Source: an uncultured virus (IMG/VR IMGVR_UViG_3300033753_000202) (Duplodnaviria > Heunggongvirae > Uroviricota > Caudoviricetes). From it: a DNA stretch of 64,000 nt. The notes under the pieces are model-generated. The model did not search any database, was not told the origin of the DNA, and worked only from the letters and a program-made list of their open reading frames with translations. Shown in pieces: positions 1-64,000 of the stretch (the stretch's first letter is position 1; each line of letters begins with the position of its first letter). The translations under genes were made by a program, and so were the position numbers. The stretch lies in the IMG/VR virus record IMGVR_UViG_3300033753_000202; one strand, 5' to 3'.

Positions 1-5
1 TCTAC

Positions 6-3000
6 TTGCAAATCGCTATCGAGGAGCATTCCAACGCTCTTGGAACTGTACCCACTTTTGAGGTGGGTTTGAGTGACGCTTCCTCGAAGCAGATCGCCAA
101 AGCGACGGCTTCTCCTTCCAATTACAATGAAGAAAAGCAAGCCTATGAGTTGGCGTTCCAGCTTCCTTCGGCGTTGAAGGAAGGAGATACGTACCATATC
201 ACTCTCTTGTCTGCCAGCCCGGAAGTTAAGGGGTTGTATTACTACACGGAAACTCGTACTCCGCTCAATGAGTTGGAAGACGAGATCGAGTGGCATGAGT
301 GGAGAGCGGATGTGAATGAGTATATCCCGGTAACGCTGGATTCCAAGCAGTTCTACGACATGGATGACAATCCTTCCTATCGTGGGGTATTGGCTTCGAA
401 GGGTAACCCGCTTCGTATGGTGCTGACCCTTCAAAAGGATGTCACGGTCTTCTACTTGAAGGATACGAACGGGAATCCGCTCAAGAATCAGCCTTTTACC
501 ATTGTGCATGATGGGAAGAAGGTCGAACTGAAGTCGGACGATAAAGGTGTGGCAACCATTAAGACGAAGAGCCTTCCAAGTGCATCTTTTGCGGTCATTA
601 CGGAAGGTCGTCTTGCCGCTACGCAAGATCCGAAGCAAGTAAAGTCCACCACGGGTTATCATACGGTATCCTTGATGAATCTCAATAATAGTTACGGTAT
701 TGAGACGGTCAACCTTCTGTATCACCCACCGGGGGTAACTGCTCAACTGGGTGAGAACGATGAGGTTGTGGAGGACGATTCCGTTGCTTTCACGATCACC
801 ACAACCAATGATCTCAACGGTACCACGAACTTGAGCGATAAGTGGGGTAACGCTTCGCTTGATCTGACGAACAGCGAAGGTAACACTTTTACTTTCTCTC
901 TGACGGAGAAAGAGCAAACCTTCTATCTCCCGGCTGGTGAGTACAAGGTATCTGTTACGTCGGAAAATGCTAACGCCAAGCTCTCGGTGCAAACGTTGAA
1001 GTTGGAGAAGGGTAAGAAAGCCACTATCGGTGTCACCCTCACTCCGAAGTATATCCTGTCTGTTGACAAGGATGGTAGGTTGTTCAACTTCAAGTTTTTG
1101 AATGTTGATTCTCTCGCTGATACGAAGTTCTCCGGCACTGATGCAAAGACTTTCGCAGTCTCTGCTGGCGAAGTGTATATGGTGCAGGACATCGACTCGG
1201 GTAAAGTGAACACGGTTGTTATCGCATCGGATCAAACACTCACTAAGCTCGTTCTGGGTGCTGGGGTAGTGTTTGGGGGTACGGTGACGACGCCGCATAC
1301 GGGTGACGACATCGTCTTCCTGATCATTCTCTTGGTTTTCTCGGCTCTGCTTGCGGGTGGTTTCTATTTCTTGCATTGGAAAAAGAAGAAAACACTGACT
1401 TTCGCAAAGCAAGCTCTGTCTATTCTTCTTGTTGCCACACTTATTGGCGGAATTTTCCCGGTTTATCCGCAACAAGTTTATGCTGAAGATGGACAAACGT
1501 CGGGTGGTTCTCGCGGCGATGAGCAGTCGGGTAAGACGAAAGCTCCGGCTGAAAGCATTAAGACCAGCAACCTCATCTCGATCATCCAAGTAGGCTTCCG
1601 TCCTGCCGATGATGACAACAATAACTTCATCTGGGGCGACAAAAAGGCGGAGTACTTTGCAGAGGAAGCCTATAATGGTACTCGCTATATCTTTACGGAT
1701 AAGGCGTATAATGGTTATTTCTACGTTGCAACGACACCTGAGTCACATGAAATCCTGACTTCAAATCGTGTGTCGCTTTATACTTTCGACTGGGCGGCGA
1801 AGCGTCCTGTTCTGGAGTTCGGTACGGATGGCAACTCAATTGTTGGGGGTAGCTCCGTCAGAAAAGGTTCCAATGCGGACTTCCAGAAGCGGGTAATCAA
1901 AGATATCAATTCTAGCAACCAGTTTGTCGCTTTGATTCGGAAGGCGATCCAAAAGCAAGGCGGGTATGACAATAGTCATCGCGCTTGGGTCGGACCGAAT
2001 AGCGCTAGCACAATGACGCTTGGTGAAGCCCTTCAAGAAGCTTACATGGAGCAAATGAGAGAGTACTTTAATCTGGATGATAAAATCGCGGAGGAGTTCG
2101 AAAAATACCGCGAGGATGCAAGGAATCTTCAGGAGGAGCTTATCGCTGAGCTTAAAGAGCTTCAAACTGTTGAGTCGAAAATTTACCTTTCTCTTTTGAT
2201 GCGTGACTATTTCAGCGTGCTTCTTAACTTGCAAAAGTACACTGATCTGGCGAAAATGGTAGAGGCAAAGGGTGAAAAGTACAATTATTTGCTCAACCGG
2301 GGTAGTGAGGAAAGTGAATCGTCGTACAGATACGCTCAAATGCGTAAGTATGCGTCTTCTTCTATCGAGTTTCAAGAGGCTGTGTTCAAGGATTACTTAA
2401 AGCTCCTTGATGAGTCTGGAGTACGTGAGATGAAAGATCTTGCCGATCATTATCGCGCTAGCTTCTCTGGTAAGAACATGATCCTTTTCGCTCAAATGGT
2501 TCCCGGTTTCTATCGTACTGAGGGTGGCGGTAAGCGCACTACCAGTGACCCGGTAGCCTTGTTCCCGATGCAGGAAGCGGTTGAGTGGTTTCTCGCTGGT
2601 ATGATTAAACATGCTGGTGAAGAAGGGACTTATCAACCGGCTTACAAGGCGTCTTCCAGCCCGGAACAATGGAAGAACTATGGTAGCACAAAGAAATGGA
2701 CGTCTCAAAACCCGTCTCGTCAATCCGAAGTGGTTTGGGGTACCGAACGTCGGGGTACTTCGGCTTCGGCGGCTGTGGCGAAGGACGCGCCGACTTTCAC
2801 CTTTATCGGTAATGCCCGCGAAACTTTTGCTGGCGCTCTCCGGGTGAATACGAAGGAAGTTCCGGCACTTCCGAACCCGTATCAAAACGTCTACCCGGTG
2901 AATGGGCAAAAGAGCAACCCGACTGCAGGTTGGTCATTCCTCCAATGGTACGGTCACGAAGCAGAATTCAAACCGCAGTATAAGACCTATGTCCATTATG

Positions 3001-5309
3001 TTCAGTTCAATGGTAAATTAACTGAAGATGGTGGACGTATTAAGATCCCTCTTGATGGTATCGAGTATGTCGAAGAGCGTTCAGACCTCTCCGGTAAGTT
3101 GGAGGATGCCGCATCGCCTAATTTTAATGGGATGTTGGTAGGGAGTATCACCACATCTTACGTTACACCTGAAGGAGATTCGTTCGTAATTTTCCCTCAG
3201 ATTGAAGGGAAGCTTGAACCGATTGTAAGGGTTTATGATGAGGCGGATGAAGAGCATCTTACGGCTAGGTTCAGTCCGAATAAATCTGGGGAATCCAATC
3301 CAAACTGGGGTACTGTTGTTGTGGAGGATGGGAAGTTTAGTTTCATGTTTGGCACACATATCCCTAGCGCGGATACACTTTACACTTATCTCGGCGGGCG
3401 TGATGTTGAGCAAGCGAACGGTGTAACGAATAAGTACTACAATCGTACTGTGGAGGACGCTAGTGGTGTTGTTCGTAGTTACTCCAATGCACGTATTGAT
3501 GTGTATATCCCGGTTGTGTTTGTTAAGGAGGGGTGCAAAGACAATCCGAACGACCCGACTTGTCCGCAACCGAAGGACTTGTTGAATGACGTTCCGCAGT
3601 GGCGTTTGTCGAAGTTCTTCTCGATGCCTGACGCTAGTGTACCTGCTTATGTGACTTTGAGTCGACCGAATGGGTACAGTGGTTACGTCGCTACACGCTA
3701 TAATGCGTCGCATACGTTGGCAACTCCGATTCTGGAGCAACCGTCTTGGCTCCAAGCCATCAACCGAGTAGTTGGGGGTACTCCGAGTCTCATTCGGGAT
3801 GTATCTACTTCGCAAGTCTTCAATGTTTACGGCGATTTCCTTGCGGTTCGTCATAATACGGATGTAGACAATATCCGTTTGGCGTCGTGGCTTGGAATCA
3901 GCAACTTGTTCGATTCTCGGATCACGTCGACTTCGCAAGGACAACCGGGTGCGACGGATCGCGTTACGGTGAAGCAGTTGGTGCAACTTCCGGTTAAGCC
4001 GAATTATCCGGCACCTATGTGGCATTACACCTACACTTACGCTTGTGGGGAGGGTTCGGTTTGCATAGGGCGTGGTTCCGCTCCAATGATCATGGGGGAA
4101 ATCCCCGGTTCACTGGATCTGAGCGTGCGGTTCAATCGTTATCGTCCGGCTGAATCGAATAAGCAACACAATATCAGTCCGACCACCACTTCGGTCGACG
4201 GTTTGTATACCGAGACTAAGGTGGAAAATACGACGCTCAAGGTCAACCCTGAAGTTGCGATGGTGTTCTCGGACATAAGCGGTAATTCGGGGGTATCGTT
4301 CGCGGCGGCTGACCGTTTGCGGGAGATCAAGCCTGTGACCTATAATACGATTCGTTATCGCAACCCGGTTATCTCTCCGCAAGTCAATGGTCTGTCGGTA
4401 GCAACTGATCCGAAGGCAAGCGATCTGGCGACTCGTCTTAACGCCAGCGGTACCGATGTCATTTACAAGGGTTCGGCTACGACCAACAGCGTTGCGGCTG
4501 AGGGGGTAGTTGAGTTCAAGACCTATGCACTTGATATTGGTAACACGCCGCTCAAGCAAGCATGGAATCCGGGAACGTCTTACAACACGCAAGCGATCAA
4601 TCGAGAGTTTCTCTCCCGCTTCCTGACCTTTAACGATGCGACAGGTAAATGGGAGGCTACTTTCAATACCCACGGCAAGTACCTCATTAACAATGCGGAC
4701 GTAGGCGGTGTTGCGGGTATGCAACGCGTGGAGCAAGACGGTACGCCGACTTCTCCGGTAGTGCATACGCTTGAAATTCGTGGTGGACGTTTGGTGGGGG
4801 TAGACGGCAACCGCGATCTCAGTAAGGTGAATCCGGAACTTATGGAAGCTCTCAAGCAAATGGGTATCACGCCGGATAATAAAGGCATCTTTGTCCAATT
4901 TGAGTCCGGTACTGGCGCTCAGCTTACCGATGAGATGAAGTCGGTGTACGATATGGTGAACCAAGCTCGCGGTGTAGAAGACTGGCGTTCGGGTCGTCCT
5001 TGGTATAATGAGGACACCACGGTCTTGGTGGTTCATGAGTACACTACGATCTTCCAAATCCCGGACTTCACTTACAGCGATAAGATCCCGATGTCCATTC
5101 AAGGTATTGAAAGTCCAGCGGATAAGAACGACTTCTTCTCCAAGGGGTATGCTGGACATATGGAGGTTCGTTACTCCATCGCGGGTCGTCCTTCGGGTGA
5201 AGCGTTCATGACGGCGAATACGCAAAAAGGTCACAATGTCAGCAGTACGAAGCCGTTGTTCTCCGTACCGAACGTTTCGGTTCAGGATACCTTCAGCACT
5301 GTCCGATAA
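6..5309 (+). CDS. Very large surface/secreted protein (5' end probably outside the window) with an internal LPXTG-like sorting signal and a second signal peptide
   Basis: 1767-aa ORF open almost from the window edge. Beta-rich Ig/Cna-like N-terminal part, then TPHTG + hydrophobic helix + KKKK, then a second hydrophobic helix ending VYA|E, then about 1270 aa of extracellular-like sequence. Confidence 0.8.
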   Translation: MQIAIEEHSNALGTVPTFEVGLSDASSKQIAKATASPSNYNEEKQAYELAFQLPSALKEGDTYHITLLSASPEVKGLYYYTETRTPLNELEDEIEWHEWRADVNEYIPVTLDSKQFYDMDDNPSYRGVLASKGNPLRMVLTLQKDVTVFYLKDTNGNPLKNQPFTIVHDGKKVELKSDDKGVATIKTKSLPSASFAVITEGRLAATQDPKQVKSTTGYHTVSLMNLNNSYGIETVNLLYHPPGVTAQLGENDEVVEDDSVAFTITTTNDLNGTTNLSDKWGNASLDLTNSEGNTFTFSLTEKEQTFYLPAGEYKVSVTSENANAKLSVQTLKLEKGKKATIGVTLTPKYILSVDKDGRLFNFKFLNVDSLADTKFSGTDAKTFAVSAGEVYMVQDIDSGKVNTVVIASDQTLTKLVLGAGVVFGGTVTTPHTGDDIVFLIILLVFSALLAGGFYFLHWKKKKTLTFAKQALSILLVATLIGGIFPVYPQQVYAEDGQTSGGSRGDEQSGKTKAPAESIKTSNLISIIQVGFRPADDDNNNFIWGDKKAEYFAEEAYNGTRYIFTDKAYNGYFYVATTPESHEILTSNRVSLYTFDWAAKRPVLEFGTDGNSIVGGSSVRKGSNADFQKRVIKDINSSNQFVALIRKAIQKQGGYDNSHRAWVGPNSASTMTLGEALQEAYMEQMREYFNLDDKIAEEFEKYREDARNLQEELIAELKELQTVESKIYLSLLMRDYFSVLLNLQKYTDLAKMVEAKGEKYNYLLNRGSEESESSYRYAQMRKYASSSIEFQEAVFKDYLKLLDESGVREMKDLADHYRASFSGKNMILFAQMVPGFYRTEGGGKRTTSDPVALFPMQEAVEWFLAGMIKHAGEEGTYQPAYKASSSPEQWKNYGSTKKWTSQNPSRQSEVVWGTERRGTSASAAVAKDAPTFTFIGNARETFAGALRVNTKEVPALPNPYQNVYPVNGQKSNPTAGWSFLQWYGHEAEFKPQYKTYVHYVQFNGKLTEDGGRIKIPLDGIEYVEERSDLSGKLEDAASPNFNGMLVGSITTSYVTPEGDSFVIFPQIEGKLEPIVRVYDEADEEHLTARFSPNKSGESNPNWGTVVVEDGKFSFMFGTHIPSADTLYTYLGGRDVEQANGVTNKYYNRTVEDASGVVRSYSNARIDVYIPVVFVKEGCKDNPNDPTCPQPKDLLNDVPQWRLSKFFSMPDASVPAYVTLSRPNGYSGYVATRYNASHTLATPILEQPSWLQAINRVVGGTPSLIRDVSTSQVFNVYGDFLAVRHNTDVDNIRLASWLGISNLFDSRITSTSQGQPGATDRVTVKQLVQLPVKPNYPAPMWHYTYTYACGEGSVCIGRGSAPMIMGEIPGSLDLSVRFNRYRPAESNKQHNISPTTTSVDGLYTETKVENTTLKVNPEVAMVFSDISGNSGVSFAAADRLREIKPVTYNTIRYRNPVISPQVNGLSVATDPKASDLATRLNASGTDVIYKGSATTNSVAAEGVVEFKTYALDIGNTPLKQAWNPGTSYNTQAINREFLSRFLTFNDATGKWEATFNTHGKYLINNADVGGVAGMQRVEQDGTPTSPVVHTLEIRGGRLVGVDGNRDLSKVNPELMEALKQMGITPDNKGIFVQFESGTGAQLTDEMKSVYDMVNQARGVEDWRSGRPWYNEDTTVLVVHEYTTIFQIPDFTYSDKIPMSIQGIESPADKNDFFSKGYAGHMEVRYSIAGRPSGEAFMTANTQKGHNVSSTKPLFSVPNVSVQDTFSTVR

Positions 5310-5325
5310 GGTAAACTTTCCAATG

Positions 5326-5357
5326 AGAAGCACCCTTGTGGGTGCTTCTTTTATTTT
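5326..5357 (+). terminator. Rho-independent terminator
   Basis: AGAAGCACCC-ttgt-GGGTGCTTCT followed by a T-rich tract. Confidence 0.85.
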
Positions 5358-5459
5358 GCTGATCAACTTGACCCTTTTAGACCTGAACGTTAGAATAATT
5401 TTAGGTAAATAGTTTTGGACAAGCCATCGTATAACTTTGCTTTTATACTGGAATTTGGG

Positions 5460-6137
5460 GTGATTTTATTGGAACAGGAGCAACAAGCGAAACCTAATCC
5501 GTATTATACGGAGTCTTACTTGAAATTCCATCCACCATATAAGGTTTGGGCATGTCGACGGGATCTGGTTGTACTCTCGGGAACACTTCGTTTCCTATTG
5601 ATTCAGTCACTTTTGATCGCACTTTGTTTTTATCTCTCGCGTTCGTCACTCATTATTTTTGAGGGACTTCAGAAGGGTGACGTTGGGTCAGCCGTTCCGG
5701 TGGACGCCCGCATTTTTCTTTGGTTGAGTTACGCTTCGCTTGGAGCTTTGGTTGTGTTACTTTTGCTTCTTTTCTTTGGGCGTAAGTTGCTGATTCAGGT
5801 GTTGGTGACTCGTCCAATTGTTTTAGCGTTGGAAAATAAGGACTATATGCAAGCCGTTGACCACTCGGAGATCCCGGAGGGACATAAAATAGTGAATTTC
5901 TTTAACTTTTTGCGGTACTCTCCGGTAAACTTGGATCGACTGGAGGATTTCCCGATTTTCATGGGAATCATAAAGGTAGGACTTGGGGTATGTTCGCACT
6001 TGATGATAGCGGGGTACTTGCCGTCTTTTGATCTGGAGATTTGGGCACTGGCGCTTTCATTTATGTACCTGTTTTATGTGTTTGGAATGGTGGCGTTGCA
6101 AATGTATGTAACGAATTTGCGATCAATGTTTTTCTAA
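5460..6137 (+). CDS. Hypothetical multi-pass membrane protein (start uncertain)
   Basis: ORF with about four hydrophobic segments. Confidence 0.6.
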   Translation: MILLEQEQQAKPNPYYTESYLKFHPPYKVWACRRDLVVLSGTLRFLLIQSLLIALCFYLSRSSLIIFEGLQKGDVGSAVPVDARIFLWLSYASLGALVVLLLLLFFGRKLLIQVLVTRPIVLALENKDYMQAVDHSEIPEGHKIVNFFNFLRYSPVNLDRLEDFPIFMGIIKVGLGVCSHLMIAGYLPSFDLEIWALALSFMYLFYVFGMVALQMYVTNLRSMFF

Positions 6138-6192
6138 CGACGTGATCCACCCCGCTTCAGAACGGGGTATTTTTATAACAGGAAGTGGTAGT

Positions 6193-6651
6193 ATGAGTAA
6201 GTTTCATTTTTCCTCTAAGCAGATAGGCGACTTCCCTATCCATCAGCATCGTGGAAGTCAGCCTTTTATTGACTTATTGGACGCTGTTCCGCTTGGAATT
6301 TTCAAACCGCTTTCGACTACACGTTATGCGAAGTATGTGTTTCTGACGCATTTGGCGTTGTACAGCAACACACTACCAATTAAAATTAAGGTTATTACTT
6401 TCGCTAAAGTTCTTCTATACGGTTGGCAGTCAGATCTGTCTTCTGAGGAGCGTCGTATTCTATCATTCGAAGATGCTTGTGACTTTATCGACTTTCCAGA
6501 CACGTATGTCGACTTGTTTCATAGGGACATTGTTTCTTTTGAAACGCAGTTCTTTGCGAATTTTCCTCCTGAGACACGAGAAAAACTGGTTACACTTCTG
6601 ACTTTCTTTCGCGCTTTAGCTGACTATCCAATATTCGAACAATCACATTGA
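6193..6651 (+). CDS. Hypothetical protein
   Basis: ORF; purine-rich GGAAGTGG upstream of the ATG. Confidence 0.55.
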   Translation: MSKFHFSSKQIGDFPIHQHRGSQPFIDLLDAVPLGIFKPLSTTRYAKYVFLTHLALYSNTLPIKIKVITFAKVLLYGWQSDLSSEERRILSFEDACDFIDFPDTYVDLFHRDIVSFETQFFANFPPETREKLVTLLTFFRALADYPIFEQSH

Positions 6652-6782
6652 GTTTTTGTTGGAAAATGAGGATACTTGTCCAAACTTTTTACTTAATCCG
6701 TGGACTCCCGGCTTTCCATTCTCTTTATGAGGTGGAAGCCGGGTGTGACTTTTGTTGAAGTATGTAAAGGCGGCGATGTTGG

Positions 6783-7466
6783 TTGGAACAGTTTCTTTCA
6801 TACGTATTAGGGTTAACGCCCTTTTGGGCGTACTATGCTTCCCTCTTTATCGTAGCGTTTTGGGGGTATCGCTACTTGTCGTCTTGCCTTGTAGCACATA
6901 TTACTCATTTGTATAATTTAACTCTCGATTCGAACAATCTGCTTGGTTACACGCACAAGCGGGTTGTTCGCACTTCAACTGATTTGGTTCCTCTTTCGGT
7001 TCCTTTCCTCACAGGTCGAAATATCCCCGAAGACCTTATTATTCCCCTAAAGCACTTTGCAAGAGCTAATGTACTTATCGCCGCCTATTTTGGACTGCTG
7101 TGGGTTGTGTTCAGTTGTCGTGCATTTTTGCATGGGTTTTTAGACTTAGAGATACATAAGGCGTTCGATTTCTTTTTTGTTTTTGATTTGGTGTTTTGCC
7201 TGTCGTGGTCGGCGTACTATCTGACTTTTTGGCTATTGGGCGGGGTACCGAGTTTAATCTTGTGGTGGGTTCGACTGGGGTATTCGGGTCGAAAGTCGTT
7301 GTTGGGAGTCATAAGACCTAGAATACATTTAGACGCGTTTAGAAGAATTGTGGTTTTTGTGTACACTTGGAACAATCAGTTCAAAGGGTTTGTGTACTTG
7401 TTTTATGGTCTTCCGCTCCTGATATTCCTCCTGCGGTCAGTCTTCGCAGTGTTGGGCGTCTTTTAA
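6783..7466 (+). CDS. Hypothetical membrane protein
   Basis: ORF with several hydrophobic segments; AAAGGCGG upstream. Confidence 0.6.
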   Translation: MEQFLSYVLGLTPFWAYYASLFIVAFWGYRYLSSCLVAHITHLYNLTLDSNNLLGYTHKRVVRTSTDLVPLSVPFLTGRNIPEDLIIPLKHFARANVLIAAYFGLLWVVFSCRAFLHGFLDLEIHKAFDFFFVFDLVFCLSWSAYYLTFWLLGGVPSLILWWVRLGYSGRKSLLGVIRPRIHLDAFRRIVVFVYTWNNQFKGFVYLFYGLPLLIFLLRSVFAVLGVF

Positions 7467-7518
7467 GGGGGTATTGAAATTTTCCGGGAAAATTCTGAAA
7501 TTTCTTTGGGAACACCCC

Positions 7519-7547
7519 TTGTCTTCCTTGGACTTATGAATTATAAT
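7519..7547 (+). promoter_or_regulatory. sigmaA-type promoter for the RNA array and DUF2828 gene
   Basis: TTGTCT-N17-TATAAT. Confidence 0.65.
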
Positions 7548-7558
7548 ATATACTGTAT

Positions 7559-8093
7559 TTGATGGTTTGGTACTTCGAGTCACTTCCAGCAACTTTTTTT
7601 TTATCGCATCTGAACTGCGATTCCGATTGTGTGACCGAAGAAGTACCGCCGTCAAGTACCTCGCTTTGGTTCTTTGACAATCACAAAGGTATTGGAGCTT
7701 TCGGTGACATCCAGCAACTTCTATTTTATATTTGCTTGGTGTGCAAATTTGTCGTGACCATTGTAAAGCTCCTTTACCTTTGTGGTTGCCAAAGCCTTTG
7801 GCGAGGCAACCTCCACTATTTGGGGCGCATCCAGCAATCTCTTTATTCGTTTCAACCTATGAAGGGGGCAGGTAACCGCATAAGGTCTCCTAGCTCTATG
7901 TAGTTTTTGACTTCGGGACTTTAAGGTTTCGGGGTCGAATCGCTGGTGTTTCTTTTCTGTCCGTCACCAACCCCAGCAGTGGGGGTACTGGTGGTCTGGA
8001 GTACGGCGGCGGCTCTGACAGGCACTTGGTGTCGCGCTCATCCGTTGCGCTGACGGTTTGTGAAAATGTTTCGCGCCCCAATAAATAGCTGGA
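7559..8093 (+). ncRNA. Array of three structured RNA units sharing WTCCAGCAA (candidate Y-RNA-like ligands or leader)
   Basis: Units at 7559-7655, 7659-7806 and 7812-8093 are each closed by long 5'/3' stems. CCAGCAA at 7586, 7711 and 7831 is each followed by a pyrimidine tract. Confidence 0.65.
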
Positions 8094-8108
8094 AAGGAGA
8101 AATGTTGT

Positions 8109-9608
8109 ATGTCGCAAAACTTCATCAACGCGGTTCGTCAGGTGCAGGACAACTCCACCTATACGGACAACGGAGCCTATGCGCTTAAGTCGACGGGTTC
8201 CCGCCTGTTGGACTTTTACGCAACGGCTGGTGCGCTTCGCGAACGTTCGTCGGAGGACATCGTCACGCAGTTCCGATTGGCGTTTGAAGAGAATCCTCTC
8301 TACGCTATGAAGGCGTTGTTCTACGCTCGGAACATTCGCGGAGGCTTGGGTGAGCGGGCTGTTCCGTTGACCATTTACCGCTACTTGGCGGACGCCCACC
8401 CGGATGTTCTTCGCAAGAATCTTCCGCTTCTGCCGTTCTACGGTCGGTGGAAGGACGTGTTGTCGCTGGAGCATACGGCGCTCGAAGGTGATATGTTTGA
8501 ACTGATCGCCAGCCAGCTTCAGCTCGACAAGGGTGCGATGGACAAGGGCGAATCGGTTTCACTTCTTGCGAAGTGGTTACCTCGCGCCAAGGTATCGCGG
8601 GTTGGTCGCCGTCTGGCGCGTCGTCTCGGACTGTCCTATCGGGGGTACGACAAGATGTTGTCGGCGCTCTGTCGTTATATGGACGTGGTGGAGGTCAAGA
8701 TGTCGCAAGGGCGTTGGAGCGAAATCAATTATGAACACGTTCCTTCCCGCGCGATGTTGCGGTACCGCAAGGCGTTCGGCAACCGTGACTCGGAGCGCTT
8801 CAAGTCTTATCTTGAAGCGGTTGCTTCCGGCGAGAAGAAGATCAATGCGGGTACGCTGTATCCTTACGATCTGCTTCGGAATGCGGGGTTGTCGATTGTT
8901 CGTGAGCATGCAAGCTGGTATGTACCAATGAATCTTGTTGTTCCGCATTGGGACGAGACTATCGAAGCGCAGTGGCGGAGCCTTCCGAACTACGTGGACG
9001 GCGAGTTCAATGTTTTGGTCATGGCGGACACGTCCGGTTCTATGCTGACGTTCGATGGCTTGCCGTTGTACACGTCCATCGGGCTGGCGCTGTATTTCGC
9101 GGAACGGAATAAGGGGGTATTCCACAATACCTTCATGACGTTCAGCCGCGAACCGCGTTTGGTCACGATTCAAGGTGAAACGTTGAAGGACAAGCTCTCG
9201 GACTTCCCGGTTATCGTGGATAACACGGATATCTTCAGGGCGTTCGAGCTTCTTCTGCAAACGGCGCTTCAGCACAATCTCACGCAAGAGGATTTGCCGA
9301 AGGCGGTCGTGATCATCACGGACGGTCAGTTTGATGCTCAGACGAGTGGTGGCAACTACCGGACGTTCCACAGTGTGGTGTCGGAGGAGTTCCGCAAGCA
9401 CGGTTTCGAGCTTCCGAATATCGTGTACTGGAATGTCAATTCGCGACACAACACGTTTCAAACCCACTCGATGATTCCGGGGGTTCAAATGGCTTCTGGT
9501 CATTCGCCTTCGGTCTTCAAGTCGGTACTGGACGCCATCGGTATGACGCCGTATGAAGCGATGATGAAGACGCTGAATGATCCGATCTACGACGCGGTGC
9601 AGGTCTAG
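8109..9608 (+). CDS. DUF2828-family protein (TROVE/Ro60-like helical domain + C-terminal vWA)
   Basis: Motifs TDNGA..STGS..LDF, ARNIRGGLGER, YGRWKD, LLAKWLPR, W..I.YEHVPS.AM, MIDAS-like DTSGSM, ITDGQFD, IVYWNV; RBS AAGGAG. Confidence 0.85.
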   Translation: MSQNFINAVRQVQDNSTYTDNGAYALKSTGSRLLDFYATAGALRERSSEDIVTQFRLAFEENPLYAMKALFYARNIRGGLGERAVPLTIYRYLADAHPDVLRKNLPLLPFYGRWKDVLSLEHTALEGDMFELIASQLQLDKGAMDKGESVSLLAKWLPRAKVSRVGRRLARRLGLSYRGYDKMLSALCRYMDVVEVKMSQGRWSEINYEHVPSRAMLRYRKAFGNRDSERFKSYLEAVASGEKKINAGTLYPYDLLRNAGLSIVREHASWYVPMNLVVPHWDETIEAQWRSLPNYVDGEFNVLVMADTSGSMLTFDGLPLYTSIGLALYFAERNKGVFHNTFMTFSREPRLVTIQGETLKDKLSDFPVIVDNTDIFRAFELLLQTALQHNLTQEDLPKAVVIITDGQFDAQTSGGNYRTFHSVVSEEFRKHGFELPNIVYWNVNSRHNTFQTHSMIPGVQMASGHSPSVFKSVLDAIGMTPYEAMMKTLNDPIYDAVQV

Positions 9609-10278: not shown

Positions 10279-10301
10279 TGATGTAAAGGAGTTGTCTATC
10301 T

Positions 10302-20031: not shown

Positions 20032-20580
20032 GTGGGGGTATTTTCTCGCTTGAAAAATTTGTGGCGTTCGCGTAAAGCGGAACCGGGGGTACCGAGTATC
20101 GATTCGTCGCAAGAAGACGTGGTTCCCGGTGACATTATTGATCTTGATCTTACGCATTGGACGGTCATCGGGACGGTGGCTTACTTTGATCCCGGTCATA
20201 CCCCGCATCGCTTTGCGTATTATTTGCAGTCTGGTTCGGAGCAAGCGTGTTTGATTCTTGAGCGGGGGCGTTCATTGGAAGCCTTGTTTGCTCGATTTGT
20301 TGAAGGTTCCTTGGACAATCCGCAAAAAGTACCGACGCAACTTAACGTTAGCGGGGTTCCGTATCGGTTGGAGTGGTATCGCAAGGATCAGGTGGTTACG
20401 AAGGGCAGTACCGATTTCCGCTCCCATGACCGGGTGATTTACTGGCGGTATCTCGGGGGTACGGACAAGGATAGCTATTTCATTCTGCAGTGGCAGGATG
20501 GGAAGTTTGTGGCGCTTGAAGCAGAACGGCTCCCCTCAGCGGCGTTTAAGATCATGAAGGTGGGTTCGCCGCAAGCATAA
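20032..20580 (+). CDS. DUF4178-like protein (PspA operon partner)
   Basis: Follows pspA; PGDI...W.V.G...Y pattern; context typical of Bacillales pspA operons. Confidence 0.6.
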   Translation: MGVFSRLKNLWRSRKAEPGVPSIDSSQEDVVPGDIIDLDLTHWTVIGTVAYFDPGHTPHRFAYYLQSGSEQACLILERGRSLEALFARFVEGSLDNPQKVPTQLNVSGVPYRLEWYRKDQVVTKGSTDFRSHDRVIYWRYLGGTDKDSYFILQWQDGKFVALEAERLPSAAFKIMKVGSPQA

Positions 20581-23868: not shown

Positions 23869-23981
23869 GTCCGGGCTTGTGTAGCGGTTTTGCGGAATAC
23901 CCCCTCTGTTGAGGGCAAGTCTGCACGGCTGAAGGCGTGGATTCCTTCCAAGGACGGCGGAAATGTCTTCCAAGCCCGGAC
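23869..23981 (+). ncRNA. Unknown structured RNA C
   Basis: Perfect 11-bp closing stem GTCCGGGCTTG/CAAGCCCGGAC. Confidence 0.55.
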
Positions 23982-45987: not shown

Positions 45988-46190
45988 TGGTCATGATGCT
46001 GGGGGTACAAGAAATCGTTGCGGCGGCTCCGGTTTTGATGGGGAAAGAAGTTCGTCTGCATTTGCACACAAATCATGGTGGTCGGAAATCCTATGTGGTT
46101 ACCATCAAGAAGGTTACCCCGGCGGGCTTGGTCACGACCAATGGCAACCATAATTTGCAGACGGTCATCGGTGTGGAGACGCTCTTGTAA
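45988..46190 (+). CDS. Small hypothetical protein
   Basis: GGAGGT RBS. Confidence 0.55.
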
Positions 46191-49242: not shown

Positions 49243-49590
49243 ATGAATGCTTTTGTAGTTGAAGGTACTGCGGATGAGCAACACTTAAAAACGCTTTACC
49301 CTGACTTGTACTGCGTGGTTACATATGGTACACGCATGAATAATCGGGTAAAGTCGCTTATTGAGAAGGCTTTGCAAGAGTGCGATCAGGTTTTTCTGCT
49401 CTCCGATCCCGATGAGGCTGGAGATGCGTTGGCACATATGGTCATGCGTTTCTTTCCTACGGTAGTGCGTATTCCTTTGAACCCGGAACGGTGCAAAGTG
49501 CTGAATGCACGGGGCAACCGTTACTCTTACGGGGTCGAGCATGCGGACTTGGAGTATCTGAAGACTGTCTTGCAAGCCTATGTTAATTAA
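49243..49590 (+). CDS. Stand-alone Toprim-domain protein (RNase M5-like)
   Basis: VVEG..D, T.GT, L.DPD.AG, GVEHA. Confidence 0.85.
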   Translation: MNAFVVEGTADEQHLKTLYPDLYCVVTYGTRMNNRVKSLIEKALQECDQVFLLSDPDEAGDALAHMVMRFFPTVVRIPLNPERCKVLNARGNRYSYGVEHADLEYLKTVLQAYVN

Positions 49591-49845
49591 CTCTTTGTTG
49601 GACTTCCATAAATAATCTATTGACATATCTATGAAATTTTGGTATAATGATCGAGGTCTTTCTCGCCTGTTCTATTTCTATATGATGGAACTGCGGGAAT
49701 GTACCTCTTTTATTTTTCTATAATGACTTAGGTTGTCCTTTTATAGAAGTACATATTTGTCATCTTTTCGGTCTAGAAACCTGCAGTTGTTTGATGCTTT
49801 TGCTACGCGGGTCTATATTAGGTAGCTAACTAAGGAGGGGTAGGC

Positions 49846-54941: not shown

Positions 54942-57590
54942 GTGGTATCTTTGCCGAGTACTAGGTTTATTAACGAGCTTCGTTCGGCGGATTCGGAGAA
55001 ACGTGTTGAGGCGATTTATCACGAAGCCCTTCGCAAAGGAATCAGCGATCTCGGCGGGCACGTTCAAAGCATCAAAACTCTTTACAATACGGATGGTATT
55101 TTGGATGGCGAGTTTTTGTTCGATGGTGCACCTCGCGTCTTTCGCATTATCATTGAGACCAAAATGGACGAATCGTTTACCAATGCAGTCGTTCGTTCGA
55201 AAGTATTGGCGCAGGTTGTCTACTATCTGAAGCGCTTTGAAGATGCCGGGGATGAACTTCCGAACATCATCTTTGTTGGTGATCGTAACGAGTGTTTTGT
55301 TGTGCATATCAACTATCTGCAAAATTACCTCAATTTCAACTGCGATTGGTCTATCGCTCCGAGTCTTGCGGGTTCTCGAAGTGTGGAATTGGTCGAAGCA
55401 CTTACATCGGATGAAGTCCTTCAATCCAACTGTTTCGTTCACATCATTGACGATAATTTTGACTTTGAGGATGTTGTGAAGGATATCTGGCGGTTGGTCA
55501 CGGGTGTAAAGACGAAATCTCGCATCACCGAGCGGAATATCTCTAAGATTTTCGAGCGTTTTTCTATGCACATCTTGAAACGCAAGCTTTCGGGGGAATC
55601 ACTTTATACTCCACGTGAGCAAGTTGAGTATTTCATGAAGCTCGTACTTCATCAAGACGACTGTTATTTGCATCCTCGCAAAAAGGGTCGTGCCGTTATA
55701 GATGGGGTAGAGGTGCAAGTCAACTCGGATGCTTTTTCGTCCTTTACCAATTACTATGAGTTTAACTATAACGCCCTTGAGAAGAAAGAGTTCACGGCTA
55801 TCGCTGACCGACTGATCGAGGATTCTGATCGTCGGCGCAAAGGGGATTTCTACACACCTACGGTTTGGGTGGATGAAGCGAACAAGATCCTTTCTCAACA
55901 TCTTGGGGCGAATTGGAAGGATGAGTACGTGGTTTGGGACTGCGCGTGGGGTACGGGAAACCTCACTCGCGATTATAATTTTTCGGAGCTGTATTGTTCG
56001 ACTTTGCATGACCATGATCTTGAGATCGGTAAAAAGTATAATCTTAACGCCCAAGCCAAGTTTCAATACGATTTTCTCAATGACGATGTTGAGTTGTTTG
56101 AGGGTCTTCGGCAAAAAGTTGCTAAAGGGTATAATCTTACCGAGAGGGACTTTTATGGTTCCAAGCTGTGGCAGAAAGCTCCTAGCTTGATCAGGAGTAT
56201 GCTTGAGGGTAAGAAGTTGTTGTTCTTCATTAATCCACCGTATGGGACAAGCGGGGAAATGTCTTCCGCGATTACGGGCAAAGAGAAGAAAGTGGGTATC
56301 GCCGCAACCAAACTTGCTGAGTTCATGCGTCGAGACAACATGGGTGCGGCGACGCAACAGCTTTATGCACAGTTCATTTACCGTATTTACACCCTTAAGC
56401 TCTTGTTTGGGGTATCGGTGACGCTTGGACTTTTTAGCCCACCTCTTTTTATGACGGGCAACTCGTTCCGGCTTTTCCGGGATAATTTGATTTCTAAGTT
56501 GACTTTGATCGACGGTATGGTTTTTCAGGCTTCTGAGTTCGCGGACGTTTCTTCCAACTGGGGTATTTCGTTTACTTTATGGACGGATGAGGAACCTACC
56601 AGTAGCACTGGGGTTTATGTGCTTCCAGTGAAAGAGGGTCGTGTAGGACAGCCCGTAACTGTAGGCACTAAGCGATTTTATAGCGTGGATAATGAGACGT
56701 CCGCTACTACTTGGTGTAAGGAGCCTTTGGTTGGGCTTCGGACGTTCGATGCTCCGCAGTTGAAAAATGCCATCAATGTGAAGGAAAAGGGTGTCGGACG
56801 TCTGTGTGAAGGTGCTATGGGGTATATCTTTACTGCCGCTTCGAATAAGGTTGAGCATAACAACTCTTATGTTTGCATTGTTAGCAGTGCTTTTGCAAAT
56901 GCACATGGTTGGCAAATCGTCGAAGGGAATTTCATGCGGAATATGGCGTACTTTACCGCTCGAAGACTGATAACAGGGAATTATGCGACTTGGGTCAACT
57001 CTAAGGATGAGTACCTCAAGCCGAATATTTCGCATCCACTGTATTCTCAGTGGGAAGCGGACGCCATTGTGTATGCTCTGTTCAATTCTGCATCGAATCA
57101 ATCCTCGTTGCGGGGTATTGAATATAAGGATGCTTCTCATGACATTTATAACCATTTCTTCTTCATGTCTCGGAATGATCTGCATCAGCTCGCTCTTGGG
57201 GATAACCCGAACGATGAGGTCTATCATGATCTTGAAGCACATGGTCAAACTGAGCGTTTTGTCTATGAGAAGCTCCAACAGGTCAACCTCTCGCCAGACG
57301 CACAGGCGGTTTTGAATATGGCGCGTCAACTTGTTCGTGACTCCTTTAAGTACCGTAAGTTGTTCCATCAGGAACACCCCGAGTATCATATCACTGCATG
57401 GGACGCGGGTTGGTATCAAATTAAGGGGGTGTTGCGGGAGTATATGCCGGAGCAGTTGAGGGAGTTCAACGCGCTCTATAAAACCTTTGAAGACCGTATG
57501 CGTCCGTTTGTTGTTGAACTTGGTTTTCTGTACGACTATCCGGGGTATGAGGAAGACCTTCAAAAGCATCCCATTCCTAGCGTTAATTAA
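54942..57590 (+). CDS. Type IIG-like restriction-modification fusion (PD-(D/E)xK nuclease + N6-adenine methyltransferase + specificity region)
   Basis: TDGIL...IIETK; G.FYTP; WDCAWGTGNL (motif I); NPPY (motif IV). Confidence 0.8.
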   Translation: MVSLPSTRFINELRSADSEKRVEAIYHEALRKGISDLGGHVQSIKTLYNTDGILDGEFLFDGAPRVFRIIIETKMDESFTNAVVRSKVLAQVVYYLKRFEDAGDELPNIIFVGDRNECFVVHINYLQNYLNFNCDWSIAPSLAGSRSVELVEALTSDEVLQSNCFVHIIDDNFDFEDVVKDIWRLVTGVKTKSRITERNISKIFERFSMHILKRKLSGESLYTPREQVEYFMKLVLHQDDCYLHPRKKGRAVIDGVEVQVNSDAFSSFTNYYEFNYNALEKKEFTAIADRLIEDSDRRRKGDFYTPTVWVDEANKILSQHLGANWKDEYVVWDCAWGTGNLTRDYNFSELYCSTLHDHDLEIGKKYNLNAQAKFQYDFLNDDVELFEGLRQKVAKGYNLTERDFYGSKLWQKAPSLIRSMLEGKKLLFFINPPYGTSGEMSSAITGKEKKVGIAATKLAEFMRRDNMGAATQQLYAQFIYRIYTLKLLFGVSVTLGLFSPPLFMTGNSFRLFRDNLISKLTLIDGMVFQASEFADVSSNWGISFTLWTDEEPTSSTGVYVLPVKEGRVGQPVTVGTKRFYSVDNETSATTWCKEPLVGLRTFDAPQLKNAINVKEKGVGRLCEGAMGYIFTAASNKVEHNNSYVCIVSSAFANAHGWQIVEGNFMRNMAYFTARRLITGNYATWVNSKDEYLKPNISHPLYSQWEADAIVYALFNSASNQSSLRGIEYKDASHDIYNHFFFMSRNDLHQLALGDNPNDEVYHDLEAHGQTERFVYEKLQQVNLSPDAQAVLNMARQLVRDSFKYRKLFHQEHPEYHITAWDAGWYQIKGVLREYMPEQLREFNALYKTFEDRMRPFVVELGFLYDYPGYEEDLQKHPIPSVN

Positions 57591-63107: not shown

Positions 63108-63983
63108 TTGCGGCAGTACTTGGATCATTGTCGGCAGATCCTTGAGCAGGGTGCGGTTCGTGGGGATCGAACGGGTACTGGTACGATCTCACACTTTGGT
63201 GGGCAAGTCGAGTATGACTTGTCGGAAGGTTTTCCGCTCATGACCACCAAGGACATGAGGGAAAACTTCCCACGCATCGTTCACGAGTTGGCGTGGTTTT
63301 TGAAGGGGGATACGCATCTTCGTTATCTTCTGCAAAACAACGTCAACATTTGGACACCTGATGCACATCGTGTGTATCGTCAGCGTGGTGGAACGCTTTC
63401 GCTTAAGGAGTTCAAGCAAAGGCTCCGGGAGGATGAACAGTTCCTTAATGACAATGGGGAACTCGGACCAGTTTATGGGAAGCAGTGGCGTTCGTGGGGT
63501 ATTGAAGGAATCGATCAACTCTCGATAGCTTTGGATCAGATCAAGAATGATCCTTCTTCTCGTCGCATTATCGTTTCGGCGTGGAATGTGTCCGATCTCG
63601 ATCAAATGGCACTCCCGCCGTGCCATGTTTTGTTCCAGTTCTATGTTCAAGATGGGCTTTTGTCTTGTAAGTTGTATCAACGGTCAGCAGACATGTTCTT
63701 GGGGGTACCGTTCAACATCGCGTCCTACGCGTTACTCGTCCATTTGATCGCGCATGTGACGGGGTTGAAGCCGGGTCGGTTCATTCACACCTTTGGTGAT
63801 GCTCATATTTATCTGAATCACGTCGAGCAAGTGAAAGAGCAACTGCGCCGCGAGCCTTTCCCGCTCCCGACGCTTCGTATCGATCCGCAACTTACTGATC
63901 TGTTTGACTTTGATCCTGCGTGGGTCACCCTTGAAAATTATAAGCACCACGGGGCGCTTCGTGGTGCTTTGTCGGTGGGTTGA
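63108..63983 (+). CDS. thyA: Thymidylate synthase
   Basis: [47 protein letters not shown]. Confidence 0.97.
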
Positions 63984-64000
63984 GAGCGCCCCCATTTGCT

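What the first reader, a model, noticed from the sequence alone, without database searches (positions are those of the whole stretch)
1..64000. Window-wide, strand-polarised excess of the hexamer GGGGTA
Seen: GGGGTA recurs every few hundred bases on the + strand, inside genes and between them. My by-eye tally is roughly 150-170 copies, against only a handful of TACCCC (e.g. about 20200, 23898, 46115). A rough base-composition expectation is a few tens. Known: polarised over-represented motifs act as Chi, KOPS/SRS or primase sites; T7 primase uses 5'-GGGTC to make pppACCC, and Firmicute DnaG prefers 5'-CTA. Inference: this is an element-specific replication, segregation or packaging signal. One option is a primase site 5'-GGGGTA that would give pppACCCC primers. 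Others are a translocase-orienting motif or the site of the encoded m6A methyltransferase.
Basis: partly seen in the sequence, partly recalled or inferred. Interest (0 to 1): 0.75.

Follow-up and report, generated by a model that had tools for sequence, protein, structure and literature searches.

The report
One-strand GGGGTA word in huge phage
A very large uncultured phage from compost-type samples carries the exact six-letter word GGGGTA about every 390 bases on one DNA strand only, evenly spaced and kept by natural selection, which points to an unknown directional process that reads the phage's DNA.

Summary
GGGGTA occurs 163 times on the + strand and 3 times on the - strand. Expected counts are about 27 and 6 (order-2 Markov).

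It is not a codon effect. ORFs hold 137 copies against 32.7±5.1 after synonymous-codon shuffling, spread over all three frames, and 27 more copies lie outside ORFs.

The word is exact: none of the 18 one-letter variants is enriched. Spacing is far more even than chance: CV 0.64 against 0.99±0.08, largest gap 1143 against 2208±468, and none of 20,000 random placements is as even. Spacing ignores gene borders.

A 97.5%-identical relative keeps the density while single sites turn over. Relatives at about 40% protein identity lack the word. One relative carries TCCCGA at 21:0 with the same spacing.

All genes in the window face the same way, so I could not separate DNA strand from transcription direction.

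My odds:
- fixed primase start sites, about 0.3
- Chi-like signal, about 0.2
- target of the phage's own MmeI/BpuSI-like single-chain methyltransferase-nuclease, found here at 54942-57590, about 0.15
- transcript-level signal, about 0.15

The scan noted similar one-strand words before on other DNA.

The parts
1..64000 (+). Array of 163 exact GGGGTA copies. Mean spacing is 391 bases and the largest gap is 1143. Copies lie in all three reading frames, between genes, in the tmRNA gene (24309) and in the span of a tRNA-Leu gene (44176).
20199..20204 (-). One of only three reverse-oriented copies. It lies inside the + strand DUF4178 gene (20032-20580).
23898..23903 (-). Reverse-oriented copy in the unexplained stretch just upstream of the tmRNA gene.
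46115..46120 (-). Reverse-oriented copy in a stretch of small unassigned ORFs between tRNA genes.
54942..57590 (+). Candidate reader: an 882-aa single-chain enzyme. It has an N-terminal PD-ExK-type nuclease motif (D51, E72-x-K74), gamma-class N6-adenine methyltransferase motifs (GxFYTP at 301-306, DCACGTG at 333-339, NPPY at 431-434) and a C-terminal domain placed like a target-recognition domain. Its fold is nearest DrdV, BpuSI, BrxX/PglX, LlaBIII and MmeI.
   Evidence: layout compared with PMC2731913 section 23
49243..49590 (+). 115-aa Toprim-domain ORF (PHROG label 'primase'). It is the only primase-like piece in the window and is not a complete primase.
49837..49842 (+). Example of a copy fused to a Shine-Dalgarno sequence (aaGGAGGGGTAggc ATG). 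10 of 69 ORF starts have the word within 25 bases upstream, usually overlapping GGAGG.

Best explanation
GGGGTA is a positively selected, exact, strand-specific and spacing-controlled word of this one huge-phage lineage. A sequence-specific factor reads it on the + strand. That strand is the sense strand of every gene here. By inference it is also the template of the lagging strand, if replication runs with transcription.

The mechanism I think most likely is fixed start sites for lagging-strand priming. 5'-GGG-GTA-3' has the 5'-G-T-(cryptic base)-3' form of the T7 primase site (5'-GTC-3', extended 5'-GGGTC-3'). It would template the primer pppACCCC. A primase that demands the whole hexamer would meet a site only about every 2.4 kb by chance. 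Selection has raised the density to one per 0.39 kb and removed gaps above about 1.1 kb. That density is close to the one per 0.25 kb that T7 gets for free from its three pentamers.

Shown: selection, exactness, polarity, even spacing, and turnover of single sites at constant density.
For: Selection on the DNA word itself:
- 137 copies in ORFs against 32.7±5.1 under a protein-preserving shuffle.
- Gly-Val is written GGG-GTA in 53 of 122 cases against 7.3 expected.
- xGG-Gly-Axx uses GGT in 42 of 45 cases against 18.6 expected.
- GGG-TAY is preceded by a codon ending in G in 31 of 39 cases against 12.4 expected.

Exactness: GGGGTA is at 6.0 times its order-2 expectation. All 18 one-letter variants are at 0.43 to 1.77 times. 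Flanks carry almost no information.

Length scale and evenness:
- Mean gap 391, CV 0.636 against 0.989±0.076, largest gap 1143 against 2208±468, gaps under 100 bases 17 against 36.1±4.6. None of 20,000 random placements reaches any of the three values.
- 11 other frequent hexamers have a median CV of 1.10.
- Spacing ignores genes: 14 of 81 ORFs have no site against 15.4±2.7 under circular shifts, and positions within ORFs are flat.

Density is kept while sites move. Between L006 and L007 (20.2 kb aligned, 2.3% different) 44 sites are shared, 7 are only in L006 and 9 only in L007. One loss and one gain lie 87 bases apart. The 2.2 kb of L007 (4251-6481) that lies between the aligned blocks carries 7 sites.

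Form of the word: the T7 primase recognises 5'-GTC-3' with a cryptic 3' base. Usable primers come from 5'-GGGTC/TGGTC/GTGTC-3' (PMC2910064, passages read). AtTwinkle uses 5'-(G/C)GGA-3' with two cryptic bases (PMC5737085, abstract read). So phage-type primases do differ in their sites.

T7 benchmark: its three pentamers lie one per 249 bases on the + strand.

The + strand is G+T-rich (G 26.5%, T 29.9%, C 20.6%, A 23.0%) with positive GC skew in all 16 bins. From my own knowledge, this is the composition expected of the strand most exposed as single-stranded DNA.
Against: No complete primase is in the 64 kb. There is only a 115-aa Toprim ORF with no BLASTP likeness to T7 gp4. Its neighbours show no zinc-finger or helicase signature.

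In T7, where the sites are known, they are neither polar (161 on +, 159 on -) nor evenly spaced (CV 0.92 and 1.00). So there is no precedent for a genome saturated with primase sites.

Primase recognition beyond three bases is usually loose, but here all six positions are strict.

Relatives at 33-47% identity, and the 57% relatives of L046, show no genome-wide polar word at all. That fits a mobile or host-linked reader better than a core replisome part.

The direction of replication is unknown. Transcription direction is fully confounded with strand in all the sequence I could read.
Confidence: 0.3

Rival explanations
1. Chi-like signal. The word is the recognition sequence of a host (AddAB/RecBCD-type) or phage-encoded helicase-nuclease. 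The enzyme enters at a double-strand end and, on meeting the word on the 3'-ending strand, switches from degradation to recombination. The phage has saturated one strand with it, as Chi-rich phages do.
For: There is a precedent in phages. LLS has 23 Chi sites in its genome (one per 1.86 kb), 20 of them in one orientation. MD8 has 32, all on the top strand. P1 has 50 in 94.8 kb. [quoted passage not shown]

As in those phages, the trait is patchy among relatives. The word is G-rich, exact and lies on the G-rich sense strand, as Chi does in bacteria (my own knowledge).

Canonical GGAGG ribosome sites and Bacillota-type accessory genes point to a Bacillota host, a group that uses AddAB with short Chi words (the AddAB link is recalled).
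Against: The density is about five times that of any Chi-rich phage in PMC12315714, and the sites are evenly spread, not clustered near an end.

Known Chi words (AGCGG, GAAGCGG, GCGCGTG, GCTGGTGG) are not enriched on the + strand.

None of 302 Bacillota genomes sampled has GGGGTA above about 1.7 times its reversed control, by my reading of the tables. That is not decisive. The known Staphylococcus Chi word is only 1.6 and 3.3 times its control in two Staphylococcus genomes, and the host is unknown.
Confidence: 0.2
2. The word is the target of the phage's own 882-aa MmeI/BpuSI/DrdV-like enzyme (54942-57590). That enzyme would methylate the single adenine of GGGGTA on the + strand only, or nick at a fixed distance. 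The genome would then carry a one-strand mark about every 400 bases. The mark could serve as a self label or as entry points for replication or transcription factors.
For: The enzyme class is established here.
- Across 14 of 14 aligned sequences the motifs GxFYTP, DCACGTG and NPPY are conserved: G301, T305, P306, G337, N431 and P433 are invariant, and D333 and Y434 are kept in at least 90%.
- D51...E72-x-K74 is invariant. It sits at the start and end of consecutive beta strands, as in MmeI (PMC2731913 section 23).
- Best fold matches are DrdV (E 8e-7), BpuSI (1.6e-6), BrxX/PglX, LlaBIII and MmeI.

Such enzymes read exact asymmetric 5-7 bp words and modify one adenine on one strand, and their specificity evolves fast (PMC2731913, abstract and section 25). 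This fits an exact hexamer with a single adenine and a different word in another lineage: TCCCGA, which also ends in A, at 21:0 in L046.
Against: No known reason makes a genome enrich and evenly space the target of its own restriction-modification enzyme.

Relatives G001 to G005 carry the same gene but have no GGGGTA excess. The one checked as a whole (G002, 211 kb) has no genome-wide polar word, nor does the 22-kb piece of G001 (L001).

Type IIL enzymes cut without regard to site orientation (preprint 10.1101/2021.01.06.425610, passage read). So polarity would give no immunity.

The link between this protein and this word rests on class resemblance only.
Confidence: 0.15
3. Transcription- or RNA-level signal. 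GGGGUA in the transcripts, or GGGGTA in the non-template strand inside the transcription bubble, is bound about every 400 nucleotides by a phage factor. That factor would keep very long one-directional transcription going (anti-termination, pausing) or mark phage RNA as self.
For: Every gene, all 18 tRNA genes and the tmRNA gene are on the + strand. So the word is always in the sense strand and this reading cannot be excluded. The three reverse copies lie in no proven - strand gene. A cold-shock-domain RNA/ssDNA-binding protein is encoded at 14519-14791.
Against: Placement ignores gene units. Copies sit inside the tmRNA gene and in the span of a tRNA-Leu gene.

Pairing with the 16S rRNA tail does not explain it. 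GGGGTG, which would pair better, is not enriched (28 against 24.5 expected). Copies near start codons are simply fused to ordinary GGAGG sites.
Confidence: 0.15
4. By-product without function: composition, codon or dipeptide bias, a dispersed repeat, or a mutation or repair bias.
For: The + strand is G- and T-rich and GGGG is itself skewed (452 against 69). G-rich words are commonly polar in Bacillota genomes (place lists).
Against: - It survives Markov orders 1 to 4 and both codon-aware shuffles.
- All three frames and non-coding DNA are affected.
- Neighbouring words are not enriched.
- Flanks are not conserved, so it is not a repeat family.
- Even spacing cannot come from composition.
- A repair-driven drive would enrich both orientations.
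- The word is seen in two independent assemblies, and the tested 10-kb stretch is held by public runs from 17 studies.
Confidence: 0.03

Closest known systems
Chi-saturated phages (coliphage LLS, P1, Pseudomonas phage MD8; Zheng et al. 2025, PMC12315714)
   Same: A short exact word is the most over-represented one in a phage genome and nearly all copies lie on one strand. The trait is patchy among related phages and is read as selection for a directional DNA-processing enzyme.
   Different: Those words are 8-mers known to be the host's Chi, at one per 1.9 kb and clustered toward one end. Here it is a 6-mer of unknown reader, at one per 0.39 kb, evenly spaced, in a phage of at least 229 kb whose host is unknown.
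Primase recognition sites of T7 gp4 (5'-GTC-3'; 5'-GGGTC/TGGTC/GTGTC-3'; PMC2910064)
   Same: The form matches: a G-run followed by G-T and one further base. The word would template an A-start, C-rich primer. Site density is of the same order as T7's (one per 249 bases).
   Different: T7's sites are degenerate, equally common on both strands (161 and 159) and randomly spaced. Here all six positions are strict, polarity is 54 to 1, and no full primase was found in the window.
Target words of single-strand-modifying restriction-modification enzymes (MmeI family/Type IIL, Type IIG BpuSI, BREX PglX; PMC2731913)
   Same: Both are exact asymmetric 5-7 bp words with one target adenine. An enzyme of this class is encoded in the window. 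Specificity is lineage-specific.
   Different: Such targets are not known to be enriched, polar or evenly spaced in the genome that encodes the enzyme. Methylation of GGGGTA was not tested.
EcoP15I-site strand bias of phage T7 (CAGCAG)
   Same: A hexamer lies on one strand only in a phage whose genes all point one way. I measured 0 and 36 in T7.
   Different: In T7 the excess is small (36 against 22.4 expected) and is explained mostly by composition. Here it is 163 against 27, with controlled spacing.
KOPS/SRS translocase-orienting words and other polar chromosome words (recalled, not read here)
   Same: They are G-rich polar words co-oriented with replication.
   Different: They are 8-mers, by my recollection one per several kb, and in cellular chromosomes. 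The known words tested are not enriched here.
Stoperators of Cluster A mycobacteriophages
   Same: They are asymmetric sites spread through a phage genome in one orientation relative to transcription, inside and between genes.
   Different: They are 13-bp sites, a few dozen per genome, bound by the repressor. Here it is a 6-mer at a several-fold higher density with no repressor context.

Membership tests
Codon/dipeptide or composition artefact | The excess vanishes under a protein- and codon-preserving shuffle | tested here: not met
   137 observed against 32.7±5.1 (synonymous shuffle) and 17.5±4.4 (codon permutation), 300 shuffles each
Codon/dipeptide or composition artefact | The word sits in a single reading frame | tested here: not met
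   Frames hold 57/45/35 copies, plus 27 copies outside ORFs
Chi sites (RecBCD/AddAB) | The word is the host nuclease's recognition sequence and is over-represented on the host's leading strands | tested here: inconclusive
   The host is unknown. 302 Bacillota genomes reach at most about 1.7 times the reversed control. But a known Chi word gives only 1.6 and 3.3 times in 2 Staphylococcus genomes.
Chi sites (RecBCD/AddAB) | One of the known Chi words is enriched | tested here: not met
   On the + strand: AGCGG 83 against 81.6 expected, GAAGCGG 10 against 9.8, GCGCGTG 2 against 3.7, GCTGGTGG 2 against 1.1
Chi-saturated phages | The phage lacks its own recombination module and nuclease inhibitor | not testable with these tools
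   Only 67.6 kb of a contig of at least 229 kb could be read
Primase recognition sites (DnaG/T7 gp4 type) | The word lies on the lagging-strand template and flips at the origin | not testable with these tools
   There is no skew switch or change of gene direction in the sequence available
Primase recognition sites (DnaG/T7 gp4 type) | A primase with a zinc-binding domain and an RNA-polymerase domain is encoded | tested here: not met
   Only a 115-aa Toprim ORF lies in the window, with no likeness to T7 gp4 and uninformative neighbours. The rest of the genome was not seen.
Primase recognition sites (DnaG/T7 gp4 type) | Primers start at the word | not testable with these tools
   This needs a primer-synthesis assay or 5'-end mapping
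Target of a Type IIG/IIL single-chain restriction-modification enzyme | An enzyme with a PD-ExK nuclease, a gamma-class N6-adenine methyltransferase and a recognition domain is encoded | tested here: met
   Motifs conserved in 14 of 14 sequences. Model pLDDT 82.4. Best fold matches are DrdV, BpuSI, BrxX, LlaBIII and MmeI. Pfam itself gave no hit, and the PDB profile search gave only HsdM at E 0.13.
Target of a Type IIG/IIL single-chain restriction-modification enzyme | The adenine of the word is N6-methylated on one strand | not testable with these tools
   All public runs found are kept as contigs only
KOPS/SRS | Known 8-mer words (GGGNAGGG, GAGAAGGG) are polar and enriched | tested here: not met
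   0 to 4 copies each, near expectation
Shine-Dalgarno-like words | Enrichment follows complementarity to the 16S rRNA tail | tested here: not met
   GGGGTG is at 1.14 times and GGGGTC at 0.69 times expectation, while GGGGTA is at 6.0 times. Only 10 of 69 ORF starts carry the word, fused to GGAGG.

The most novel reading that the evidence does not exclude
The word is the recognition site of the phage's own MmeI/BpuSI-like enzyme. That enzyme writes a strand-specific mark (m6A) or a nick on the + strand about every 400 bases. Because all sites point the same way, marks or nicks never face each other. The phage would then carry a one-strand 'barcode' that tells its DNA from host DNA, or that supplies evenly spaced entry points for replication or clamp loading. 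This would be a T5-like one-strand-interrupted or one-strand-methylated genome whose enzyme and site are both known. Different lineages would have re-tuned the enzyme to other words (TCCCGA in L046).
Probability: 0.12. Interest if true: 0.9.

Novelty: new variant of a known kind. Interest (0 to 1): 0.72.

Why it matters
Polar over-represented words such as Chi, KOPS and primase sites are among the few sequence signals that reveal how a replicon is copied, repaired or moved. Here one exact hexamer has reshaped synonymous codons, and even amino-acid pairs, across a huge phage. It is five times denser than in any Chi-rich phage I could find in print, and its spacing is controlled. That implies a strong and still unnamed requirement of a widespread compost phage. 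The tested 10-kb stretch is held by public runs from 17 studies.

The question is directly testable, because a candidate reader of exactly the right enzyme class lies in the window and the word is known. If it is the methyltransferase-nuclease, it would be a new use of restriction-modification-type enzymes by phages.

A second lineage with another word at the same spacing (L046), and two earlier notes of this scan on other elements, suggest the phenomenon is recurrent.

Tried and rejected
1. Reaching the rest of the genome.
- No whole genome is held.
- The records behind L006 and L007 are not held for pattern search. A region request by locus id was not accepted.
- Searches of IMG/VR found no copy of this phage: an exact 45-mer, the 1767-aa protein and the 713-aa protein just past the window.
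- GenBank phages gave no match, by DNA for 1-25000 or by the 882-aa protein.
- So the ori/ter flip test and the gene-direction test could not be run.

2. Host through a YitT-like gene. The genome-contig scan found nothing. The Atlas says only Bacillota. The ThyA scan gave 80 loci at 50-55% identity from many phyla and was uninformative.

3. Host-Chi test by counting GGGGTA in Bacillota genomes. One search drew the same sample as and added one genome. The result is inconclusive in view of the benchmark.

4. Relatives.
- The GTACCT(T) excess in L002 turned out to be a local cluster: 31 of the 66 copies on its majority strand lie in the first 30 kb of a 211-kb record. It is not a genome-wide word.
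- L019 (TTCCTG 12:0, 7 of the 12 between ORFs), L038, L032 and L001 show weaker words with random spacing.
- In L046, 12 of the 15 in-ORF copies share one frame, so that case is less clean than the window.

5. Laying contigs of four other runs on 1-20000. Only 40 of 822 differences were printed, so site turnover could not be counted there. None of the 40 falls in the 11 sites before 3803, against 0.7 expected, which says nothing. Contigs show no molecule ends, so nicks or RNA ends at the word could not be looked for.

6. Literature. Searches for the word itself (primers only), for over-represented primase sites, for skewed oligomers in phage genomes, for hexamers in the same orientation and for architecture-imparting sequences found no description of a hexamer-saturated phage genome. 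The library lacks most subscription journals.

7. Promoter reading. There is no upstream conservation out to -60, so the word is not the -10 box of a sigma-type promoter.

8. Periodicity of the gaps at 3, 10.5 or 11 bases: none.
Full report
WHAT THE WINDOW IS

The 64 kb is the terminal part of a 228,941-base metagenome contig. L006 is that contig at 100% identity, and the window is reversed relative to the record. It belongs to a very large uncultured phage.

All identifiable genes lie on the + strand. So do 18 tRNA genes and a tmRNA gene at 23990-24505. The long '-' ORFs overlap + strand genes that have Pfam hits, or the tmRNA gene, and none of them has a family hit.

Gene content:
- a PurA/PurZ-like gene, a thymidylate synthase and a dTMP kinase
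- a TROVE-like DUF2828 protein and a cold-shock-domain protein
- PspA, YitT, Asp23, an MCP-signalling-domain protein, a Macro domain and a GNAT acetyltransferase

Ribosome sites are canonical GGAGG, and the YitT-like protein groups with Bacillota. This suggests a Bacillota host.

The tested 10-kb stretch (47001-57000) is held by public runs labelled compost, phyllosphere, bioreactor, mixed culture and sheep gut, from 17 studies. There is no relative in GenBank phages.

THE OBSERVATION

GGGGTA occurs 163 times on + and 3 times on -. Dinucleotide shuffles give 22.8±4.7 for both strands together. Order-2 Markov expectations are 27.0 for + and 5.7 for -. So the asymmetry comes from a six-fold enrichment on one strand, not from avoidance on the other.

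IS IT A CODING BY-PRODUCT? NO.

- Shuffling synonymous codons within each ORF, with proteins kept, gives 32.7±5.1 copies against 137. Permuting codons gives 17.5±4.4. All three frames are enriched four- to five-fold: 57/45/35 against 10.4/12.8/9.2.
- 27 copies lie outside my ORF model. One lies in the tmRNA gene and one in the span of a tRNA-Leu gene.
- At the codon level the choice depends on context. Gly-Val is written GGG-GTA in 53 of 122 cases (7.3 expected from codon usage). xGG-Gly-Axx uses GGT in 42 of 45 cases (18.6 expected). GGG-TAY follows a codon ending in G in 31 of 39 cases (12.4 expected). Gly-Val pairs themselves are in excess, 122 against 88.5.
- Selection on the DNA word has therefore shaped synonymous sites and, to a degree, protein sequence.

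ANATOMY OF THE SIGNAL

- The word is exact. All 18 one-letter variants lie at 0.43 to 1.77 times expectation, against 6.0 times for GGGGTA. Flanks carry only faint preferences: T at the two following positions and C eight bases upstream. There is no upstream box out to 60 bases. It is not part of a longer repeat.
- Spacing is regular. The mean is 391 and the CV is 0.636 against 0.989±0.076 for random placement. The largest gap is 1143 against 2208±468. Only 17 gaps are under 100 bases against 36.1±4.6. None of 20,000 random placements reaches any of these values.
- Eleven other frequent hexamers have a median CV of 1.10.
- Spacing is a property of the DNA coordinate, not of genes. 14 of 81 ORFs have no site, against 15.4±2.7 under circular shifts, and positions within ORFs are flat.
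- Ten of 69 ORF starts carry the word just upstream, nearly always overlapping an ordinary GGAGG. I read this as the cheapest place to put a G-rich word, not as its function. GGGGTG, which would pair better with the 16S rRNA tail, is not enriched.

EVOLUTION

L007 comes from another sample and is 97.5% identical in DNA over 20.2 kb. It has 61:3 against 56:2 in the matching part of the window's contig.

Of the aligned sites, 44 are shared, 7 are only in L006 and 9 only in L007. L006 sites change as often as any hexamer (13.7% against 12.1%). Single sites are thus not individually conserved, yet density and evenness are kept (CV 0.63 and 0.70). One loss and gain lie 87 bases apart. The 2.2 kb of L007 between the aligned blocks carries 7 sites. 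This is what selection on spacing, rather than on particular sites, predicts.

More distant relatives were found through the 882-aa protein at 33-47% identity. They lack the word. Five IMG/VR records show 30:30, 31:21, 6:10, 13:4 and 0:2, no more than the reversed control. I examined 27 of the 47 loci then held; the 20 loci shorter than 5.5 kb were left out. Only L006 and L007 show the word.

The whole 211-kb record G002 has no genome-wide polar hexamer. Its GTACCT(T) excess is a local cluster.

One 8.4-kb contig (L046) carries TCCCGA at 21:0 with mean gap 404, CV 0.60 and largest gap 987, nearly the same statistics as the window. But 12 of its 15 in-ORF copies share one frame, and its 57% relatives have no such word.

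The trait is thus lineage-specific and patchy.

A CANDIDATE READER IN THE WINDOW

The 882-aa protein (54942-57590) has no Pfam or PHROG hit. An alignment of 14 homologues shows these conserved motifs:
- GxFYTP
- VVWDCACGTGNL
- FINPPYG
- an invariant D51 ... E72-x-K74

A profile search of PDB sequences finds only HsdM, weakly (E 0.13, over these motifs). The AlphaFold model (pLDDT 82.4) places D51 at the start of one beta strand and E72-x-K74 at the end of the next, as described for MmeI (PMC2731913, section 23). Its best fold matches are DrdV, BpuSI, BrxX/PglX, LlaBIII, HsdM, M.TaqI and MmeI. E-values run from 8e-7 to 5e-4. TM-scores are low (0.2 to 0.28), as expected for a flexible four-domain chain.

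It is therefore a single-chain nuclease-methyltransferase of the Type IIG/IIL kind. That is the class that reads exact asymmetric 5-7 bp words and modifies one adenine on one strand (PMC2731913, abstract and section 25).

Whether GGGGTA is its target is not shown. Relatives with the gene have no enriched word, and nothing known explains enrichment of an enzyme's own target.

THE PRIMASE OPTION

The word has the form of the T7 site: 5'-GTC-3' with a cryptic 3' base, and usable sites 5'-GGGTC/TGGTC/GTGTC-3' (PMC2910064). It would give pppACCCC.

I measured T7 as a benchmark. Its three pentamers occur 161 times on + and 159 times on -, one per 249 bases, with CV 0.92 and 1.00. So T7 reaches a similar density by chance and shows no polarity.

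A primase needing a full hexamer would have to be served by the genome. That could explain enrichment, the length scale of a few hundred bases and the removal of long gaps.

Against it:
- only a 115-aa Toprim ORF is present here
- all six positions are strict
- related phages have no word at all

THE CHI OPTION

Phages that saturate one strand with the host's Chi are known: LLS, P1 and MD8 (PMC12315714). This is the closest described phenomenon.

The differences are density (five times higher here), even spread instead of terminal clustering, and an unknown host. Known Chi, KOPS and SRS words are not enriched.

A scan of 302 Bacillota genomes found none with GGGGTA above about 1.7 times its reversed control. 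But the Staphylococcus Chi word scores only 1.6 and 3.3 times in two Staphylococcus genomes. So the scan cannot exclude a host Chi.

THE TRANSCRIPTION OPTION

This cannot be excluded. Strand and transcription direction are completely confounded in all 67.6 kb available.

VERDICT

The word is a selected, exact, polar and spacing-controlled signal. The mechanism is open.

My odds:
- primase start sites: 0.3
- Chi-like signal: 0.2
- target of the encoded Type IIG/IIL enzyme: 0.15
- transcript-level signal: 0.15
- by-product: 0.03
- the rest: something not yet thought of

My literature searches found no description of a hexamer-saturated phage genome. Two earlier notes of this scan describe similar one-strand words on a giant plasmid-like element and on a soil phage. 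They are unchecked AI notes and not independent evidence.

Noticed in passing
window 54942-57590 (+): An 882-aa protein without any Pfam or PHROG hit is a single-chain PD-ExK nuclease plus gamma-class N6-adenine methyltransferase plus recognition domain (MmeI/BpuSI/DrdV-like). It is conserved at 33-47% identity in many huge-phage contigs (42 metagenome loci, 5 IMG/VR loci).
   Followed up: yes
window, whole: There is very strong avoidance of short restriction-type words. GGCC occurs once against 86 expected. CGATCG (18 expected), GGATCC (17), CCGCGG (13), ACCGGT (12) and GAGCTC (11) do not occur at all. TCCGGA occurs 3 times against 25. The asymmetric words ATTGCG/CGCAAT and CGCTGC each occur 0 times against 28 on both strands. 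The phage seems to rely on site avoidance, which argues against a general protective DNA hypermodification.
   Followed up: partly
window 39814-41106 (+): A PurA-family protein hits the PHROG labelled '2-aminooxy adenylosuccinate synthetase' (E 6e-54), which from memory I take to mean PurZ. It is only distantly like solved PurA structures (E 5e-15). It may hint at a 2-aminoadenine (Z) genome. Catalytic residues were not checked, and I looked for no partner genes.
   Followed up: partly
window 23578-24505 (+): The tmRNA match spans 516 bases for a 374-position model, and ARAGORN did not call it. The 400 bases upstream hold a second tRNA-like T-arm (about 23840-23860) and weak matches to the permuted-tmRNA model (E 0.03). 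This may be an insertion-bearing or two-piece tmRNA.
   Followed up: partly
window 44034-44128 (+): ARAGORN calls a tRNA of unknown identity with a four-base anticodon (cttg) inside the Leu-tRNA cluster. Rfam did not list it at its gathering score. Rfam lists a tRNA at 43631-43705 that ARAGORN does not.
   Followed up: no
window, whole (+ strand): The sense strand is T-rich, not A-rich (T 29.9%, A 23.0%). TTCTTT is 98:15 and TTTCTTT is 49:2. In relatives the sense strand is rich in AAAGAA-type words. This is an unusual keto (G+T) skew for a coding strand.
   Followed up: no
L046 1-8385: A distant relative's 8.4-kb contig carries TCCCGA at 21:0 with mean gap 404 and CV 0.60, the same spacing statistics as GGGGTA in the window. 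12 of the 15 in-ORF copies share one frame.
   Followed up: partly
L048-L050 (G002 record, first 30 kb): A longer oriented element around TCGTACCTTTGC clusters in the first 30 kb of a 211-kb relative, among small genes and long T runs. It is probably a promoter- or terminator-type repeat of an early region.
   Followed up: partly
window 6-5309 (+), open at the window start: An ORF of more than 1767 aa has no Pfam or PHROG hit and no relative in IMG/VR by the peptide-pattern scan.
   Followed up: partly
window 18328-18927 and 6673, 14862: Other strains differ by a deletion of about 550-600 bases (18328-18927 and 18360-18905) and by insertions of 1209 and 633 bases (joints table). The accessory-gene region is variable between strains.
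   Followed up: no
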